IMG/VR virus record: IMGVR_UViG_2657245015_000009
Length of the DNA: 4,455 nucleotides
DNA from: a virus
Taxonomy: Duplodnaviria; Heunggongvirae; Uroviricota; Caudoviricetes
Reading direction: 5' to 3' (one strand)
Shown one piece after another: positions 1 to 4,455 of this stretch. Position numbers and translations under genes: made by a program. Below the pieces are notes generated by a model, which searched no databases, had not been told where the DNA came from, and saw nothing but the letters and a program-made list of their open reading frames with translations. Each line of letters opens with the position of its first letter. Position 1 is the stretch's first letter.

Positions 1-2445
<2,445 letters not shown>

Positions 2446-2450
2446 TCACG

Positions 2451-2454
2451 CTCC
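2451..2454 (-). promoter_or_regulatory. Shine-Dalgarno (GGAG) for J, 8-nt spacer to ATG
   Basis: Minus strand reads GGAG-CGTGAGGA-ATG; the spacer itself contains GAGGA abutting the ATG. Confidence 0.6.
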
Positions 2455-2464
2455 ATAAACGACA

Positions 2465-2484
2465 AAACCGCCCGCAGGCGGTTT
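2465..2484 (-). terminator. Perfect 8-bp stem / 4-nt loop hairpin in the I-J intergenic gap, followed on the minus strand by a U-rich run; possible weak intrinsic terminator, attenuator or mRNA-stability element
   Basis: Forward 2465..2472 aaaccgcc pairs with 2477..2484 ggcggttt, loop cgca. On the minus-strand transcript the hairpin is followed by UUUUGUCGUUUAU and then the J SD. The GC core is only 5 bp, so termination is likely partial at best. Confidence 0.3.
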
Positions 2485-2502
2485 CACATAAAACATTTTG
2501 CA

Positions 2503-3174
2503 TCAGCGACCAATCACCACAACCTGACCACCGTCCCCTTCATCTGCCGTGCTAATCTCCTGAGAGACAACACGTGACCCCACGCGCATTTCACCGTACA
2601 GAACGGGCAGAACATTGCCCTGGGCAACCATGTTATCCAGGGAGGAGAAATAGGTGTTCTGTTTGCCGTTATCCGTTGTCTGTGTACGGGGAGTTCTGGC
2701 TTTCGGTGCCAGCATCTGCGCCACACCACCGAGCACCATACTGGCACCGAGAGAAAACAGGATGCCGGTCATACCACCGGCCCCAATGGCTGCCCCCCAT
2801 GCTGCAAGGGTGGCTCCGGCAGTAAAGAATGATCCGGCAATGGCGGCTGCCCCCAGGACAATCTGGAATACACCACCTGACTTGGCCCCGGCGACTCTGG
2901 GAACAATATGAATCACAGCGCCATCAGGCAGAGTCTCATGTAACTGCGCCGTTAACCCGGACGTGCTGACGTCCCGCCCGGCAATCCGTACCTGATACCA
3001 GCCGTCGCTCAGTTTCTGACGAAACGCCGGGAGCTGTGTGGCCAGTGCCCGGATGGCTTCAGCCCCCGTTTTCACACGAAGGTCGATGCGGCGACCAAAT
3101 CGTTGTAAATCCCCGTAAAGGCAGATGCGCGCCATGCCCGGTGACGCCAGAGGGAGTGTGTGCGTCGCTGCCAT
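2503..3174 (-). CDS. I: Tail tip assembly protein I (lambda gpI-like), 223 aa, ubiquitin-like beta-grasp N-terminal domain ending in Gly-Gly followed by a Gly/Ala-rich hydrophobic segment
   Basis: Complete ORF in track (223 aa, [29 protein letters not shown]...), recognised as lambda gpI; same length as lambda I. Start ATG 3174..3172 with a GAGG-type SD about 11 nt upstream. Sits 60 nt upstream of J, as in lambda. Confidence 0.93.
   Translation of the reverse strand: MAATHTLPLASPGMARICLYGDLQRFGRRIDLRVKTGAEAIRALATQLPAFRQKLSDGWYQVRIAGRDVSTSGLTAQLHETLPDGAVIHIVPRVAGAKSGGVFQIVLGAAAIAGSFFTAGATLAAWGAAIGAGGMTGILFSLGASMVLGGVAQMLAPKARTPRTQTTDNGKQNTYFSSLDNMVAQGNVLPVLYGEMRVGSRVVSQEISTADEGDGGQVVVIGR
2707..2871 (-). 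other. Gly/Ala-rich hydrophobic segment of I (about 55 aa) with small-xxx-small spacing; possible membrane-insertion or glycine-zipper region
   Basis: VFQIVLGAAAIAGSFFTAGATLAAWGAAIGAGGMTGILFSLGASMVLGGVAQMLAP directly follows the GG and is followed by a polar C-terminal domain. Confidence 0.5.
2872..3135 (-). other. Ubiquitin-like beta-grasp domain of I (approximate bounds), ending in Gly-Gly (codons 2872..2877)
   Basis: The segment from [14 protein letters not shown] to IHIVPRVAGAKSGG has the length and hydrophobic pattern of a ThiS/MoaD/ubiquitin-like fold and terminates in GG. Confidence 0.55.
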
Positions 3175-3815
3175 TTGTCGGTATACCTCTCTCGTTTGCT
3201 CAGTTGTTCAGGAATATGGTGCAGCAGCTCGCCGTCACCACAGTAAATGGCGGCATGATTCGGCACCGATGAACCAAAACAGCACAGCAGCACATCGCCC
3301 GGCTGCGCCTCTGTCAGTGCGACACGGTAAAAACCAGTAGCCTCCATATTGTCAAGATAGAGATTCTGACCGTGACGCCACCAGTCATCCCCGCGATGAA
3401 AATTCGGCATCTCAATCCCCGCCAGATGATAAGCATCCCGGAACAGCGTGTAACAGTCCGTCACCCCGTGCTCAAAGCGCCGCCCGGTGAGATGCGGCAC
3501 ACAGCGGAACTTATGAATCGTCCCCCGGCAGACCAGCCACCACGGCAAATCACTCTGCACCTGCAGCCGCCGGTCAGCCTCACTCAGCCAGGGCAGACCA
3601 CCGGGGTGGCTGTGGACCAGCGCCACAATCTCACCCTGCATTTCTGCCTGCAGCCAGTCCTCCGGAGCCATCCGGAAATAATCCTCCGGCTCACCGGAAA
3701 TATTCACGCAGGGAAAATATCTTTCCCCCTCCGGCGCTCTCACCACGAAGCCGCACGACTCCGCTGGCGCACATCGCCGGGCGTGCGCCAGAATCGCTGA
3801 TTCTGTCTCTGTCAT
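3072..3815 (-). CDS. K: Tail tip assembly protein K (lambda gpK-like), 247 aa from the ATG at 3815; JAMM/MPN metallopeptidase domain fused to NlpC/P60 cysteine peptidase domain. Alternative internal start at 3671 would give 199 aa
   Basis: Track ORF 3072..3857 (261 aa) begins at a TTG that overlaps L; the first ATG (3815..3813, [14 protein letters not shown]...) lies 4 nt after the L stop. JAMM motif H-x-H-x7-S-x2-D present ([14 protein letters not shown]). NlpC/P60-like Cys (DCYTLF) and His (VPNHAAIY) present. Stop TGA at 3074..3072. Overlaps the start of I by 103 nt out of frame. Confidence 0.88.
3153..3485 (-). other. NlpC/P60 papain-like cysteine peptidase domain of K (approximate bounds); candidate catalytic Cys codon 3453..3455, His codon 3255..3257
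   Basis: Cys in [17 protein letters not shown] and downstream His in [17 protein letters not shown] fit the order and spacing of an NlpC/P60 Cys-His-His triad. Assigned by recognition, not alignment. Confidence 0.6.
3186..3189 (-). promoter_or_regulatory. Candidate Shine-Dalgarno (GAGG within AGAGAGG) for I, about 11-nt spacer, embedded in K coding sequence
   Basis: Minus strand reads ACGAGAGAGG-TATACCGACAA-ATG. The spacer is rather long, so this is tentative. Confidence 0.4.
3513..3812 (-). other. JAMM/MPN (JAB) metallopeptidase domain of K (approximate bounds); signature [14 protein letters not shown] at 3573..3614
   Basis: H-x-H-x7-S-x2-D motif read directly from the translation, with Glu residues upstream; domain boundaries are approximate. 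Confidence 0.7.
3682..3687 (-). promoter_or_regulatory. Strong internal Shine-Dalgarno (GGAGGA) upstream of the in-frame ATG at 3671 inside K
   Basis: Minus strand reads GCC-GGAGGA-TTATTTCCGG-ATG-GCT (Met63 of the track [17 protein letters not shown]...). This could drive a 199-aa K isoform or simply be the historical annotation start. Confidence 0.45.
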
Positions 3816-3819
3816 GGGA

Positions 3820-4455
3820 TTACTGCGAAAGTTTGTTAATGGAAAGGAAGCCGCCAAAGTTGCCGACGTTATTGCGAAACTTACAGCCGCTCAGGCATTT
3901 GCTGCATTTATCCTTCGTGATATCGGACGTCGGCTGGTCATATTCATCCGCGACTGCCGGACCGTGATAACCGCACTCATCACCGCGATAGGTCCAGGTG
4001 CAGGTGTTGGCCAGCATGATACGCCCCGGAAAAACAGCGCCATCCGTTTCCGTCGGCGTGGACAGTACAAAGGAGGCACTCACCGCGCTCAGTTCGCTGC
4101 ACTGCTCGATGCGCCAGCGGCTGATCACCTCCTGCTCCGGATCGGCGTCTCTGTTTCCGTTGACGAAGTTCACCGCATCCAGAAAACGGGCGTAAACCTT
4201 ACGCCGGACCACCGTTCCGCCGACCAGACTCTGCATATCTTCCACCATACCGGTGACCATGCCGTACAGGTTAGAGACTGCCAGCGTGGGCCGCGTACTG
4301 GTGCCTTTGCCATTCAGTTCAAAACCGCTCCCCTGAATGGCCCTTCCCGTCATGTGAAAGTTGAAACCACCGACGGCGTGGTTCAGCTCTCCGGTACCGT
4401 CGATTCCCAGGCACAGAGCGACCGTGCTGAAAGTATCGCCAAAGCGGTAGATGGT
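3820..4455 (-). CDS. L: Tail tip protein L (lambda gpL-like), 5'-partial: the N-terminus lies beyond the window end; C-terminal Cys-rich region present
   Basis: Track ORF 3820..4353 (177 aa, ...[18 protein letters not shown]...[12 protein letters not shown]...[12 protein letters not shown]...SINKLSQ) recognised as gpL. The same frame stays open upstream from 4354 to 4455 ([34 protein letters not shown]), so the track's Met at 4353 is internal. Stop TAA at 3822..3820. Confidence 0.9.
3883..4002 (-). other. Cys cluster in the C-terminal domain of L (Cys codons at 4000..4002, 3973..3975, 3904..3906, 3895..3897, 3883..3885); candidate iron-sulfur ligands
   Basis: The pattern C-x8-C ... C-x2-C-x3-C ([10 protein letters not shown] ... 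CSKCLSGC) is read from the translation; gpL-family proteins have been reported to coordinate an Fe-S cluster through C-terminal cysteines. Confidence 0.6.

What the first reader, a model, noticed from the sequence alone, without database searches (positions are those of the whole stretch)
2503..3815. I/K pair forms a ubiquitin-like / JAMM / NlpC-P60 module inside the tail-tip operon
I encodes a beta-grasp ubiquitin-like domain that ends in Gly-Gly (codons 2872..2877) and then continues into a hydrophobic Gly/Ala-rich segment and a C-terminal domain. The adjacent gene K fuses a JAMM/MPN metallopeptidase ([14 protein letters not shown]) to an NlpC/P60 cysteine peptidase (Cys in DCYTLF, His in NHAAIY). 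JAMM enzymes are the family that cleaves after Gly-Gly in ubiquitin-like systems, so K may process I at the GG, and the NlpC/P60 domain may act as a second peptidase or transferase. This architecture has been noted in comparative-genomic work on prokaryotic ubiquitin-like systems, but as far as I know the chemistry for phage tail assembly has not been worked out. It is the most mechanistically open element in the window.
Basis: partly seen in the sequence, partly recalled or inferred. Interest (0 to 1): 0.7.

Follow-up and report, generated by a model that had tools for sequence, protein, structure and literature searches.

The report
Phage tail ubiquitin-like domain and protease
These are the well-known lambda-type tail-tip genes K and I: K carries a deubiquitinase-type protease that removes a ubiquitin-like handle from I while the tail tip is built, an idea predicted in 2006 and now being confirmed by experiment, so this is a correct reading of a known system and not a new one.

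Summary
I (2503..3174, minus strand, 223 aa) has a beta-grasp N-terminal domain, Gly100-Gly101 at 2872..2877, an uncharged Gly/Ala-rich segment and a C-terminal domain. K (3072..3815, 247 aa) is a JAMM/JAB domain fused to NlpC/P60. Pfam, structure prediction and fold search support all three assignments.

The window is phage 21/lambda DNA: I is 100% identical to phage 21 I and 222/223 to lambda gpI.

The mechanism is not new. Iyer, Burroughs and Aravind predicted it in 2006. Cryo-EM shows only the C-terminal part of gpI in virions, as a plug. [quoted passage not shown] A 2026 F-pyocin preprint shows by mass spectrometry that the homologous N-terminus is lost on maturation.

Two refinements come from this work. 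Both catalytic sets in K are invariant in 80 homologs, which leaves the NlpC/P60 role open.

In passing: lambda's classic 199-aa K comes from a missing G in the 1982 reference sequence.

The parts
3072..3815 (-). Gene K, 247 aa: tail-tip assembly protein, JAB/JAMM domain fused to NlpC/P60
   Evidence: ORF. Pfam. 98% identical to a 9,427-member E. coli cluster of 247 aa (P0126). Phage 21 and re-sequenced lambda annotate the same 744-nt gene.
3504..3806 (-). K residues 4-104: JAB/MPN+ (JAMM) metalloprotease domain. Glu19 is at 3759..3761 and H68-x-H70-x7-S78-x2-D81 at 3573..3614.
   Evidence: Prok-JAB E 3e-14. E19, H68, S69, H70, S78 and D81 are invariant in 80 homologs at 26-98% identity. Fold matches PfJAMM1, AMSH and CSN5. 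The nearest NCBIfam family is desampylase (below its cut-off).
3144..3485 (-). K residues 111-224: NlpC/P60 (C40) papain-like domain. Cys121 is at 3453..3455, His187 at 3255..3257 and His200 at 3216..3218.
   Evidence: NLPC_P60 E 2e-12. D120, C121, N186, H187, H199 and H200 are invariant in 80 homologs. Fold matches MepS/Spr, LytE and Acd autolysins.
2503..3174 (-). Gene I, 223 aa: tail-tip plug / insertion protein precursor
   Evidence: 222/223 identical to lambda gpI in PDB 8iyk, 8iyl, 8k35 and 8xcg. 100% identical to phage 21 I.
2884..3135 (-). I residues 14-97: ubiquitin-like beta-grasp domain of the ThiS/MoaD/SAMP type
   Evidence: Lambda_tail_I E 1e-28. AF2 secondary structure. Foldseek hits to SAMP1, MoaD, CysO and Urm1.
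2872..2895 (-). I residues 94-101 (V-A-G96-A-K-S-G100-G101): the tail of the ubiquitin-like domain that holds the candidate scissile bonds. G96 is at 2887..2889 and G100-G101 at 2872..2877.
   Evidence: P92 97%, G96 95%, A/S97 88%, G100 58%, G101 74% in 62 divergent homologs. Gly-Gly present in 32/60. pLDDT below 50 for residues 97-103.
2707..2871 (-). I residues 102-156: uncharged Gly/Ala-rich hydrophobic segment (helices H1/H2, predicted transmembrane)
   Evidence: 45% Gly+Ala and no charged residue. Hydropathy 1.2-1.6. The literature assigns two putative transmembrane helices that leave the tip on receptor binding.
2506..2706 (-). I residues 157-223: C-terminal plug and beta-strand domain retained in the virion tip lumen
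   Evidence: PDB 9e7m holds residues 133-222. Cryo-EM shows a trimer plugging the tip and holding the C-terminus of the tape-measure protein.
3072..3174 (-). 103-nt overlap of the 3' end of K with the 5' end of I (the I frame is -1 relative to K)
   Evidence: No X XXY YYZ slippery heptamer.
3820..4455 (-). Gene L (C-terminal about 212 codons; the start lies beyond the window): tail-tip hub protein, context
   Evidence: Phage_tail_L E 7e-81.
1..2442 (-). Gene J (N-terminal 814 codons): central tail fiber / hub, the partner of the I C-terminal domain, context
   Evidence: Phage-tail_3, FNIII-A_GpJ and Ig_J domains.

Best explanation
K and I are the lambda/phage 21 tail-tip assembly pair. I is made as a precursor with three parts: an N-terminal ubiquitin-like beta-grasp domain (about residues 14-96), a short Gly/Lys spacer, and then two hydrophobic helices plus a C-terminal plug domain. 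The ubiquitin-like domain most likely acts as a removable chaperone or steric block. It would keep the hydrophobic helices soluble and prevent premature docking while I is inserted into the J-L hub. K is a non-structural enzyme. Its JAMM zinc-protease domain binds the ubiquitin-like domain as a deubiquitinase binds ubiquitin, and cuts the linear peptide bond at the end of its flexible tail once I is in the tip complex. That releases the ubiquitin-like domain and leaves residues from about 97-101 to 223 as the trimeric plug, which holds the tape-measure C-terminus and later inserts into the host outer membrane. Shown here: the folds, the catalytic motifs and their invariance, and the conserved pairing of the two genes. 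Shown by others: only the C-terminal part of I is in virions, K is absent from virions, the N-terminus is lost on maturation in F-pyocin, and gpK-dependent cleavage occurs in lambda (reported in a talk). Inferred: the chaperone/checkpoint role and the exact bond. The NlpC/P60 domain is probably also catalytic, but its substrate is unknown.
For: Domain assignments. JAMM residues E19, H68, H70, S78 and D81 are invariant in 80 K homologs down to 26% identity (9 named phages). In 8/8 divergent phages sampled (hosts Mannheimia, Burkholderia, Synechococcus, Shigella (T1-like phage), Escherichia (phage Rtp), Moraxella, Acinetobacter, Pseudomonas), K is JAB+NlpC/P60 and I carries the Lambda_tail_I domain. 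All 120 best profile hits for K carry both domains. The tail after the last strand is disordered (pLDDT below 50 for 97-103) and carries the conserved P-x3-G-[A/S] motif. Literature: the 2006 prediction. gpI residues 134/135-223 form a plug, gpI is detected and gpK is not detected by MS in virions. The closed state is resolved from residue 101 with an unresolved N-terminal domain. T1 gp34 is modelled over residues 92-163, and residue 92 is the Gly101 equivalent. The PA0640 N-terminus is present in stalled tips and absent in mature F-pyocin, and deletion of PA0639 gives tubes without tips. [quoted passage not shown]
Against: The only direct statement that gpK is the protease is a conference summary. 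No full paper was found, and an August 2026 paper still calls the function of the gpK counterpart unclear. The F-pyocin preprint reports that PA0640 expressed alone in E. coli loses its N-terminus to unknown host proteases, so K-independent cleavage is possible. I could not model the K:I complex or inspect coordinates, so which bond lies at the zinc site is inferred from conservation and tail length only. The canonical JAMM substrate is a Gly-Gly C-terminus, which favours Gly100-Gly101 over Gly96 in this particular sequence.
Confidence: 0.85

Rival explanations
1. The papain-like NlpC/P60 domain of K, not the JAMM domain, removes the ubiquitin-like domain from I (most eukaryotic deubiquitinases are papain-fold cysteine proteases). 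The JAMM domain would serve only as the ubiquitin-like-binding module or cut something else.
For: C121, H187 and H199/H200 are invariant in 80 homologs although K is not a virion protein, so the domain needs a substrate inside the producing cell. Iyer et al. raised this possibility.
Against: The JAMM catalytic set is equally invariant. A JAB/ubiquitin-like pairing recurs in unrelated prokaryotic operons that lack NlpC/P60. The talk summary attributes the activity to the 'deubiquitinating domain'. The closest structural neighbours of the NlpC/P60 half are peptidoglycan endopeptidases, not deubiquitinases.
Confidence: 0.06
2. The N-terminal domain of I is removed non-specifically by host proteases once it becomes exposed. 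K would have a different essential role, such as scaffold or peptidoglycan or other processing.
For: PA0640 expressed alone in E. coli loses its N-terminal region to unknown host proteases. The spacer after Gly96 is disordered.
Against: This does not explain the strict co-occurrence of JAB with the ubiquitin-like domain, the invariance of the JAMM residues, or the 95% conservation of Gly96. It also contradicts the talk summary.
Confidence: 0.05
3. The ubiquitin-like domain is transferred, not discarded. The NlpC/P60 cysteine would form an acyl-enzyme with the freed C-terminus and conjugate it to a lysine of a tail protein, which would be E1-independent, sortase-like ubiquitin-like conjugation.
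For: The NlpC/P60 superfamily includes acyltransferases; a weak LRAT hit was seen for the Mannheimia phage K. Both catalytic centres are conserved in one compact protein (pTM 0.87).
Against: The operon has no E1 or E2. [quoted passage not shown] No ubiquitin-like density is reported in any lambda or T1 tail structure.
Confidence: 0.02
4. I is not cleaved at all. The ubiquitin-like domain stays attached and is simply too flexible to be seen by cryo-EM.
For: Cryo-EM papers describe the N-terminal domain only as 'unresolved'. One even speculated that it might be a cell-wall enzyme.
Against: F-pyocin MS peptide coverage distinguishes precursor from mature forms, and the talk summary reports cleavage. 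Three 10-kDa domains would have to fit in or next to a lumen already filled by the plug and the tape-measure protein.
Confidence: 0.02

Closest known systems
Bacteriophage lambda / phage 21 gpK and gpI (TAPK/TAPI of Iyer, Burroughs and Aravind 2006)
   Same: This is the same system. I is 100% identical to phage 21 I and 222/223 to lambda gpI. The DNA is 96.9% identical to phage 21. The gene order L-K-I-J, the 103-nt K/I overlap and the domain architecture are all the same.
   Different: Nothing of substance differs. The window shows the full 247-aa K, whereas the classic lambda record gives 199 aa because of a missing base.
Pseudomonas F-type pyocin PA0639 (gpK-like) / PA0640 (gpI-like plug)
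   Same: A homologous pair in a phage-tail-derived bacteriocin. Only the C-terminus of the plug is visible, and its N-terminus is lost on maturation. Deleting the gpK homolog gives tubes without tips. PA0640 is probably PDB chain 25vf_9, which matches I at E 5e-18; that assignment is my inference from the molecule name and length.
   Different: It is a tailocin, not a phage. The protease was not identified in that preprint.
Archaeal JAMM desampylases acting on SAMPs (HvJAMM1, PfJAMM1-SAMP2; PDB 5ld9/5lda)
   Same: A minimal JAMM domain acts on a ThiS/MoaD-type beta-grasp protein. These are the best structural matches for both partners and the nearest NCBIfam family. From my own knowledge, HvJAMM1 also cleaves a linear SAMP1-MoaE fusion.
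   Different: SAMPs are free modifiers conjugated by an E1. Here the ubiquitin-like domain is a cis-fused N-terminal pro-domain that is cut once, and no E1 or E2 is present. The NCBIfam score (28.5 bits) is far below the equivalog cut-off (130).
Eukaryotic ubiquitin-fusion precursors (ubiquitin-ribosomal protein fusions; SDE2 UBL cleavage)
   Same: In functional logic, an N-terminal ubiquitin-like domain acts as a transient chaperone or assembly handle and is removed by a deubiquitinase after a glycine to release the working protein. This rests on established knowledge; the SDE2 example appeared.
   Different: The protease families are unrelated (USP/UCH), the context is eukaryotic, and there is no structural assembly checkpoint.
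NlpC/P60 peptidoglycan endopeptidases (E. coli MepS/Spr, B. subtilis LytE)
   Same: The fold and the Cys-His-His catalytic triad.
   Different: Those enzymes are exported and act on the cell wall. K starts directly with the JAB domain, and by MS it is not in virions, so access to peptidoglycan is unexplained.
Bacterial ubiquitin-like conjugation systems with a JAB peptidase (CBASS Cap2/Cap3; Bil)
   Same: A prokaryotic JAB peptidase partnered with a ubiquitin-like or C-terminal-glycine substrate. Bil targets the phage central tail fiber (abstract listed).
   Different: Those are host defence systems with E1 and E2 enzymes and isopeptide conjugation. K/I is a phage assembly module with neither.

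Membership tests
Lambda gpI family (Pfam Lambda_tail_I; tail-tip plug / insertion protein) | Sequence membership above the curated threshold and identity to the solved protein | tested here: met
   PF06805, 100 bits against a cut-off of 23.8. 222/223 identical to PDB 8iyk chain I.
Lambda gpI family (Pfam Lambda_tail_I; tail-tip plug / insertion protein) | Position between a K-like gene and a J-like gene in a tail-tip operon | tested here: met
   L-K-I-J order in the window and in most of the divergent phages sampled.
Ubiquitin-like beta-grasp proteins of the ThiS/MoaD/SAMP type | beta-beta-alpha-beta-beta grasp fold | tested here: met
   AF2 model pLDDT 80-91 over residues 11-95. Foldseek probability 1.00 to SAMP1, MoaD, CysO and Urm1.
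Ubiquitin-like beta-grasp proteins of the ThiS/MoaD/SAMP type | Conserved glycine at the end of a flexible tail after the last strand | tested here: met
   G96, three residues after strand 87-93, is conserved in 95% of divergent homologs.
Ubiquitin-like beta-grasp proteins of the ThiS/MoaD/SAMP type | Conserved C-terminal Gly-Gly | tested here: inconclusive
   Present here at 100-101, but in only 32/60 divergent homologs; the spacer ends in Gly-Gly in 28/60.
Ubiquitin-like conjugation system (E1/E2-dependent modifier) | A cognate E1-like adenylating enzyme (and E2) encoded with the modifier | tested here: not met
   Only L, K, I and J are present in the window and in 8 related loci, and no ThiF/E1 or UBC domain was found. 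It is therefore a cis-cleaved pro-domain and not a conjugation system.
JAMM/MPN+ metalloproteases (Pfam Prok-JAB) | E ... H-x-H-x7-S-x2-D zinc and catalytic motif | tested here: met
   E19, H68, H70, S78 and D81 are present and invariant in 80 homologs.
JAMM/MPN+ metalloproteases (Pfam Prok-JAB) | MPN fold and profile score above threshold | tested here: met
   53.3 bits against a cut-off of 25. Foldseek hits to PfJAMM1, AMSH-LP, CSN5 and Rpn11.
JAMM/MPN+ metalloproteases (Pfam Prok-JAB) | Zinc-dependent hydrolysis after the terminal glycine of a ubiquitin-like substrate | not testable with these tools
   Reported only in a conference summary.
NlpC/P60 (MEROPS C40) papain-like enzymes | Catalytic Cys at a helix N-terminus plus His and a third polar residue | tested here: met
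   C121 starts helix 121-131. C121, H187 and H199/H200 are invariant.
NlpC/P60 (MEROPS C40) papain-like enzymes | Profile score and fold | tested here: met
   47.4 bits against a cut-off of 23. Foldseek hits to MepS/Spr, LytE and Acd33800.
NlpC/P60 (MEROPS C40) papain-like enzymes | Peptidoglycan (gamma-D-Glu-mDAP or similar) endopeptidase activity with access to the cell wall | not testable with these tools
   The N-terminus of K is the JAB domain, and K is not detected in virions. The substrate is unknown.

The most novel reading that the evidence does not exclude
The NlpC/P60 half of K has an invariant Cys-His-His centre in every homolog examined, yet K is absent from virions. It may be a second maturation enzyme of the tail tip and not a cell-wall hydrolase. 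One candidate role is as the still-unidentified protease that cuts the tape-measure protein gpH to gpH* in its Gly-rich C-terminal region. Another is trimming or transpeptidation of the new N-terminus of I. K would then be a two-headed maturation protease that times two cleavages in tail assembly.
Probability: 0.15. Interest if true: 0.6.

Novelty: already known. Interest (0 to 1): 0.3.

Why it matters
The K/I pair is one of the simplest ubiquitin-like/deubiquitinase modules known, with no E1, E2 or E3. It shows a ubiquitin-like fold used as a removable assembly handle, and it occurs in more than 1,700 sequenced phages as well as in tailocins. Knowing the exact cut site and trigger would explain how siphophage tail tips are assembled in order and how the membrane-inserting plug is kept inert, which is useful for engineering phages and F-type pyocins. 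For a genome scan, however, this window adds nothing new. It is essentially phage 21/lambda sequence, and the hypothesis is 20 years old and already under experimental test. The practical outputs of this check are a sharper prediction of the scissile bond and the point that experiments and annotations should use the 247-aa K, not the 199-aa reference form.

Tried and rejected
(1) Programmed -1 frameshifting from K into I. The I frame is -1 relative to K, and many K-I fusion proteins exist in the databases. But there is no X XXY YYZ heptamer in the 103-nt overlap. The fusions are mostly clusters of one to three sequences joined at a CACACAC tract, so they look like indel errors or mutations.

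(2) The second Gly-Gly (133-134) as the cleavage site, since two cryo-EM models start at 134/135. It is gapped in 73-87% of divergent homologs, and another structure resolves gpI from residue 101.

(3) P0287, a 2,783-aa protein with 23 matches to I, as a possible poly-ubiquitin-like array. It is a low-complexity repetitive ORF in which a short chance motif recurs.

(4) The search for related loci with I alone returned only identical lambdoid loci and was of no use for diversity. I used the representative search and annotated phage records instead.

(5) Synonymous/non-synonymous counts for the first 48 codons of K against lambda were uninterpretable (1 synonymous, 42 non-synonymous) because the lambda reference is frameshifted there. 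That led to the annotation finding. The summed counts over 59 alleles (141/162 in the extension against 971/565 in the core) come from non-independent pairs, and I do not rely on them.

(6) I searched for a full paper on the gpK-gpI cleavage and for any paper linking gpK with NlpC. None is in the library.

(7) I did not attempt a K:I complex model. The structure tool returns no coordinates, so docking geometry could not have been read.
Full report
WHAT IS THERE

The window carries, on the minus strand, the 3' part of L (3820..4455), K (3072..3815), I (2503..3174) and the first 814 codons of J (1..2442). The DNA of 2400..3900 is 96.9% identical to phage 21 and 96% identical to several lambda-family records. 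The I protein is 100% identical to phage 21 I and 222/223 identical to lambda gpI as deposited in PDB 8iyk, 8iyl, 8k35 and 8xcg. So this is the classical lambda-type tail-tip module.

CHECKING THE OBSERVATION

- Gly100-Gly101 of I is at 2872..2877.
- [14 protein letters not shown] is K residues 68-81.
- DCYTLF is K residues 120-125.
- NHAAIY is K residues 186-191.

Pfam places Lambda_tail_I on I residues 14-97, Prok-JAB on K residues 4-104 and NLPC_P60 on K residues 111-224. All three score above their gathering thresholds.

I tested the fold claims independently. An AlphaFold2 model of I residues 1-110 has strands at 13-19, 29-34, 59-64 and 87-93, with helices between them and a disordered tail from residue 97. 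Its best PDB matches are SAMP1, MoaD, CysO and Urm1, followed by SUMO and ubiquitin. The K model is very confident (pLDDT 94.5, pTM 0.87). It splits its PDB matches between MepS/Spr-type NlpC/P60 endopeptidases and the JAMM enzymes PfJAMM1 (including its SAMP2 complex), AMSH, CSN5 and Rpn11. I residues 102-156 are 45% Gly+Ala with no charged residue.

HOW GENERAL THE MODULE IS

The I family has 3,207 representative clusters at E<=1e-3 and is found in 1,733 phage records across many host genera. I sampled eight divergent phages, at 28-53% identity for K and 31-40% for I. Their hosts are Mannheimia, Burkholderia, Synechococcus, Shigella (a T1-like phage), Escherichia (phage Rtp), Moraxella, Acinetobacter and Pseudomonas. 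In all eight, K is JAB+NlpC/P60 and I carries the ubiquitin-like domain. All 120 best profile hits for K have both domains.

In an 80-sequence K alignment spanning 26-98% identity, the invariant columns include the complete JAMM set (E19, H68, S69, H70, S78, D81) and the NlpC/P60 set (D120, C121, N186, H187, H199, H200). Both halves of K therefore look catalytically competent throughout the family.

WHAT IS ALREADY KNOWN

Iyer, Burroughs and Aravind (2006, PMC1779556) described exactly this. They identified a ThiS/MoaD-like ubiquitin-like domain in tail assembly protein I, with a conserved C-terminal glycine, a Gly-rich linker and a C-terminal domain. They noted that it is flanked by K with JAB and NlpC/P60 domains. 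They predicted that the JAB releases the ubiquitin-like domain by cleaving at its C-terminal-most glycine and that NlpC/P60 'might also be involved'.

Cryo-EM of lambda places a trimer of the gpI C-terminal part (residues 134/135-223) in the tip lumen, as a plug that holds the C-terminus of the tape-measure protein. gpI was detected in virions by mass spectrometry and gpK was not. The receptor-bound structure paper describes an unresolved N-terminal domain, two hydrophobic helices resolved from residue 101 in the closed state, and release of those helices towards the outer membrane on opening.

[quoted passage not shown] Deleting the gpK homolog PA0639 gives tubes without tips. The protease was left unidentified, and PA0640 expressed alone lost its N-terminus to host proteases.

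I found no full paper on the lambda cleavage. An August 2026 paper still calls the function of the gpK counterpart unclear. The architecture and the mechanism are therefore known, and the experimental proof is only partly in print.

WHERE THE CUT IS

Three lines of evidence bear on this.

(a) Conservation. Among 62 full-length homologs at no more than 60% identity:
- Pro92 is conserved in 97% and Gly96 in 95%.
- Residue 97 is Ala or Ser in 88%.
- Gly100 is conserved in 58% and Gly101 in 74%.
- The later Gly133-Gly134 is gapped in most sequences.

A register-independent count gives Gly at P92+4 in 57/60 and a Gly-Gly anywhere in the spacer in 32/60. The spacer between Gly96 and the hydrophobic block is 3-8 residues long and usually basic. 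Several homologs read G-A-G-K with no Gly-Gly at all.

(b) Geometry. The last strand ends at Arg93. Gly96 is three residues beyond it, which by my own knowledge of those proteins matches the short C-terminal tails of MoaD, SAMP and ubiquitin. Gly101 would need an eight-residue tail.

(c) Virion models. Lambda gpI is said to be resolved 'from position 101 onward'. T1 gp34 is modelled over residues 92-163, and in the T1 sequence residue 92 is the second Gly of K-T-G-G, which is the exact equivalent of lambda Gly101. If those boundaries are accurate, Gly101 remains in the mature protein, which excludes a cut after it.

Against this, a Gly-Gly C-terminus is the canonical JAMM substrate. I therefore rank the candidates as Gly96|Ala97 (about 45%), Gly100|Gly101 (about 25%) and Gly101|Val102 (about 20%). 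Intact-mass measurement would decide between them, using the masses.

MECHANISM

The best-supported account has four steps.
1. I is made as a precursor whose ubiquitin-like domain keeps the two hydrophobic helices soluble and blocks later assembly steps.
2. Its C-terminal strands insert between the J hub domains.
3. K, a transient factor, docks on the ubiquitin-like domain through its JAMM domain and cuts the tail once the tip is assembled.
4. The ubiquitin-like domain and K leave, and the tape-measure, adaptor and tube proteins can then engage.

The folds, motifs and pairing are shown here. The cleavage and its timing are shown by others. The chaperone or steric-block role is inference.

The rivals each get a few per cent, for the reasons given in their entries. 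They are NlpC/P60 as the real protease, non-specific host proteolysis, transfer of the ubiquitin-like domain to a target, and no cleavage at all.

THE OPEN PART

The NlpC/P60 domain has an invariant catalytic centre and its closest structural relatives are cell-wall endopeptidases. Yet K begins with the JAB domain and is not found in virions or in mature pyocins.

A role as a second maturation protease is not excluded. One candidate substrate is the gpH to gpH* cleavage, whose enzyme is stated to be unknown. It is also unsupported by any data here, and I give it about 15%.

SIDE FINDINGS

(1) The classic lambda K of 199 aa (14276..14875) starts at what is Met49 in this window and lacks the JAMM glutamate. 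The cause is a single missing G in the reference sequence J02459/NC_001416: GAGGC-TAT against GAGGCGTAT, in codon 45.
- Two independently sequenced lambda genomes (PV340536 and LC730321) carry the G and encode an intact 247-aa K.
- DE3, lambda imm21 and imm434 hybrids, HK629 and HK630 also span one extra base over this stretch.
- PHROG 7305, a 76-residue family of unknown function, matches K residues 1-76, the length of the orphan ORF this frameshift creates.
- This probably explains why an HHpred analysis of the 199-aa protein saw only the peptidase.

(2) Some records start I at the GTG of Val34, giving 190 aa. That would delete the first two strands of the ubiquitin-like domain. Conservation of G21, L23 and G27, and the starts of divergent homologs at the Met14 equivalent, argue against it.

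(3) A stable hairpin followed by a T-run lies between I and J, at about 2462..2486 (-16.1 kcal/mol, z -3.6). Phage 21 annotates it as a terminator.

VERDICT

The novelty class is 'already known', and interest is low to moderate (0.3). What interest remains lies in the unresolved NlpC/P60 function and the exact scissile bond.

Noticed in passing
window 3672..3815 (K codons 1-48); lambda NC_001416 position about 14265 (L090, L089): The classic 199-aa lambda K annotation comes from a single missing G in the 1982 reference (GAGGC-TAT against GAGGCGTAT, codon 45). Independently sequenced lambda genomes (PV340536, LC730321), DE3, imm21/imm434 hybrids, HK629/630 and this window all give an intact 247-aa K that includes the JAMM Glu19. 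PHROG 7305 (76 aa, unknown function) matches K residues 1-76, the length of the orphan ORF this frameshift creates.
   Followed up: yes
window 3073..3174 (I codons 1-34): The start of I is annotated in different ways in public records: Met1 (223 aa; PDB, phage 21) or the GTG of Val34 (190 aa; PV340536, and the 190-residue protein quoted in PMC7291167). The Val34 start would remove beta-strands 1-2 of the ubiquitin-like domain, and conservation argues against it. Divergent homologs begin at the Met14 equivalent. A GAGAGG Shine-Dalgarno-like element precedes Met1 and none precedes Met14.
   Followed up: partly
window 2462..2486, minus strand (between the I stop at 2503 and the J start at 2442): A GC-rich hairpin (AAACCGCC-TGCG-GGCGGTTT) followed by a T-run, -16.1 kcal/mol, z -3.6. 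Phage 21 annotates it as a terminator, but the simple terminator scan did not report it. A terminator-like element inside the late operon just before J might tune J expression.
   Followed up: partly
window 3072..3174: K and I overlap by 103 nt with I in the -1 frame. Databases hold many K-I (and JAB-I) fusion proteins, mostly in clusters of one to three sequences (e.g. P0149, P0009, P0224; PHROGs 28576 and 35166), joined near a CACACAC tract. There is no slippery heptamer, so they look like indels and not programmed frameshifting.
   Followed up: partly
window 2773..2778 (I Gly133-Gly134): A second Gly-Gly lies exactly where two cryo-EM models of virion gpI begin (residues 134/135). It is not conserved (gapped in 73-87% of divergent homologs), and another structure resolves gpI from residue 101, so it is probably only the end of a flexible helix-helix loop.
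   Followed up: yes
window about 3823..4000, minus strand (C-terminus of L): A Cys cluster (C-x...-C-x2-C-x3-C...DECGYHG...[11 protein letters not shown]...) is present. It corresponds to the [4Fe-4S] site described for lambda gpL in the literature read here. I did not examine it further.
   Followed up: no
L084 (Pseudomonas phage AUS531phi), locus 715..2492: In this phage K and I are separated by about 1.8 kb that carries a SPOR-domain protein gene and small ORFs. The K-I adjacency is therefore not obligatory, even though both domains are kept.
   Followed up: no
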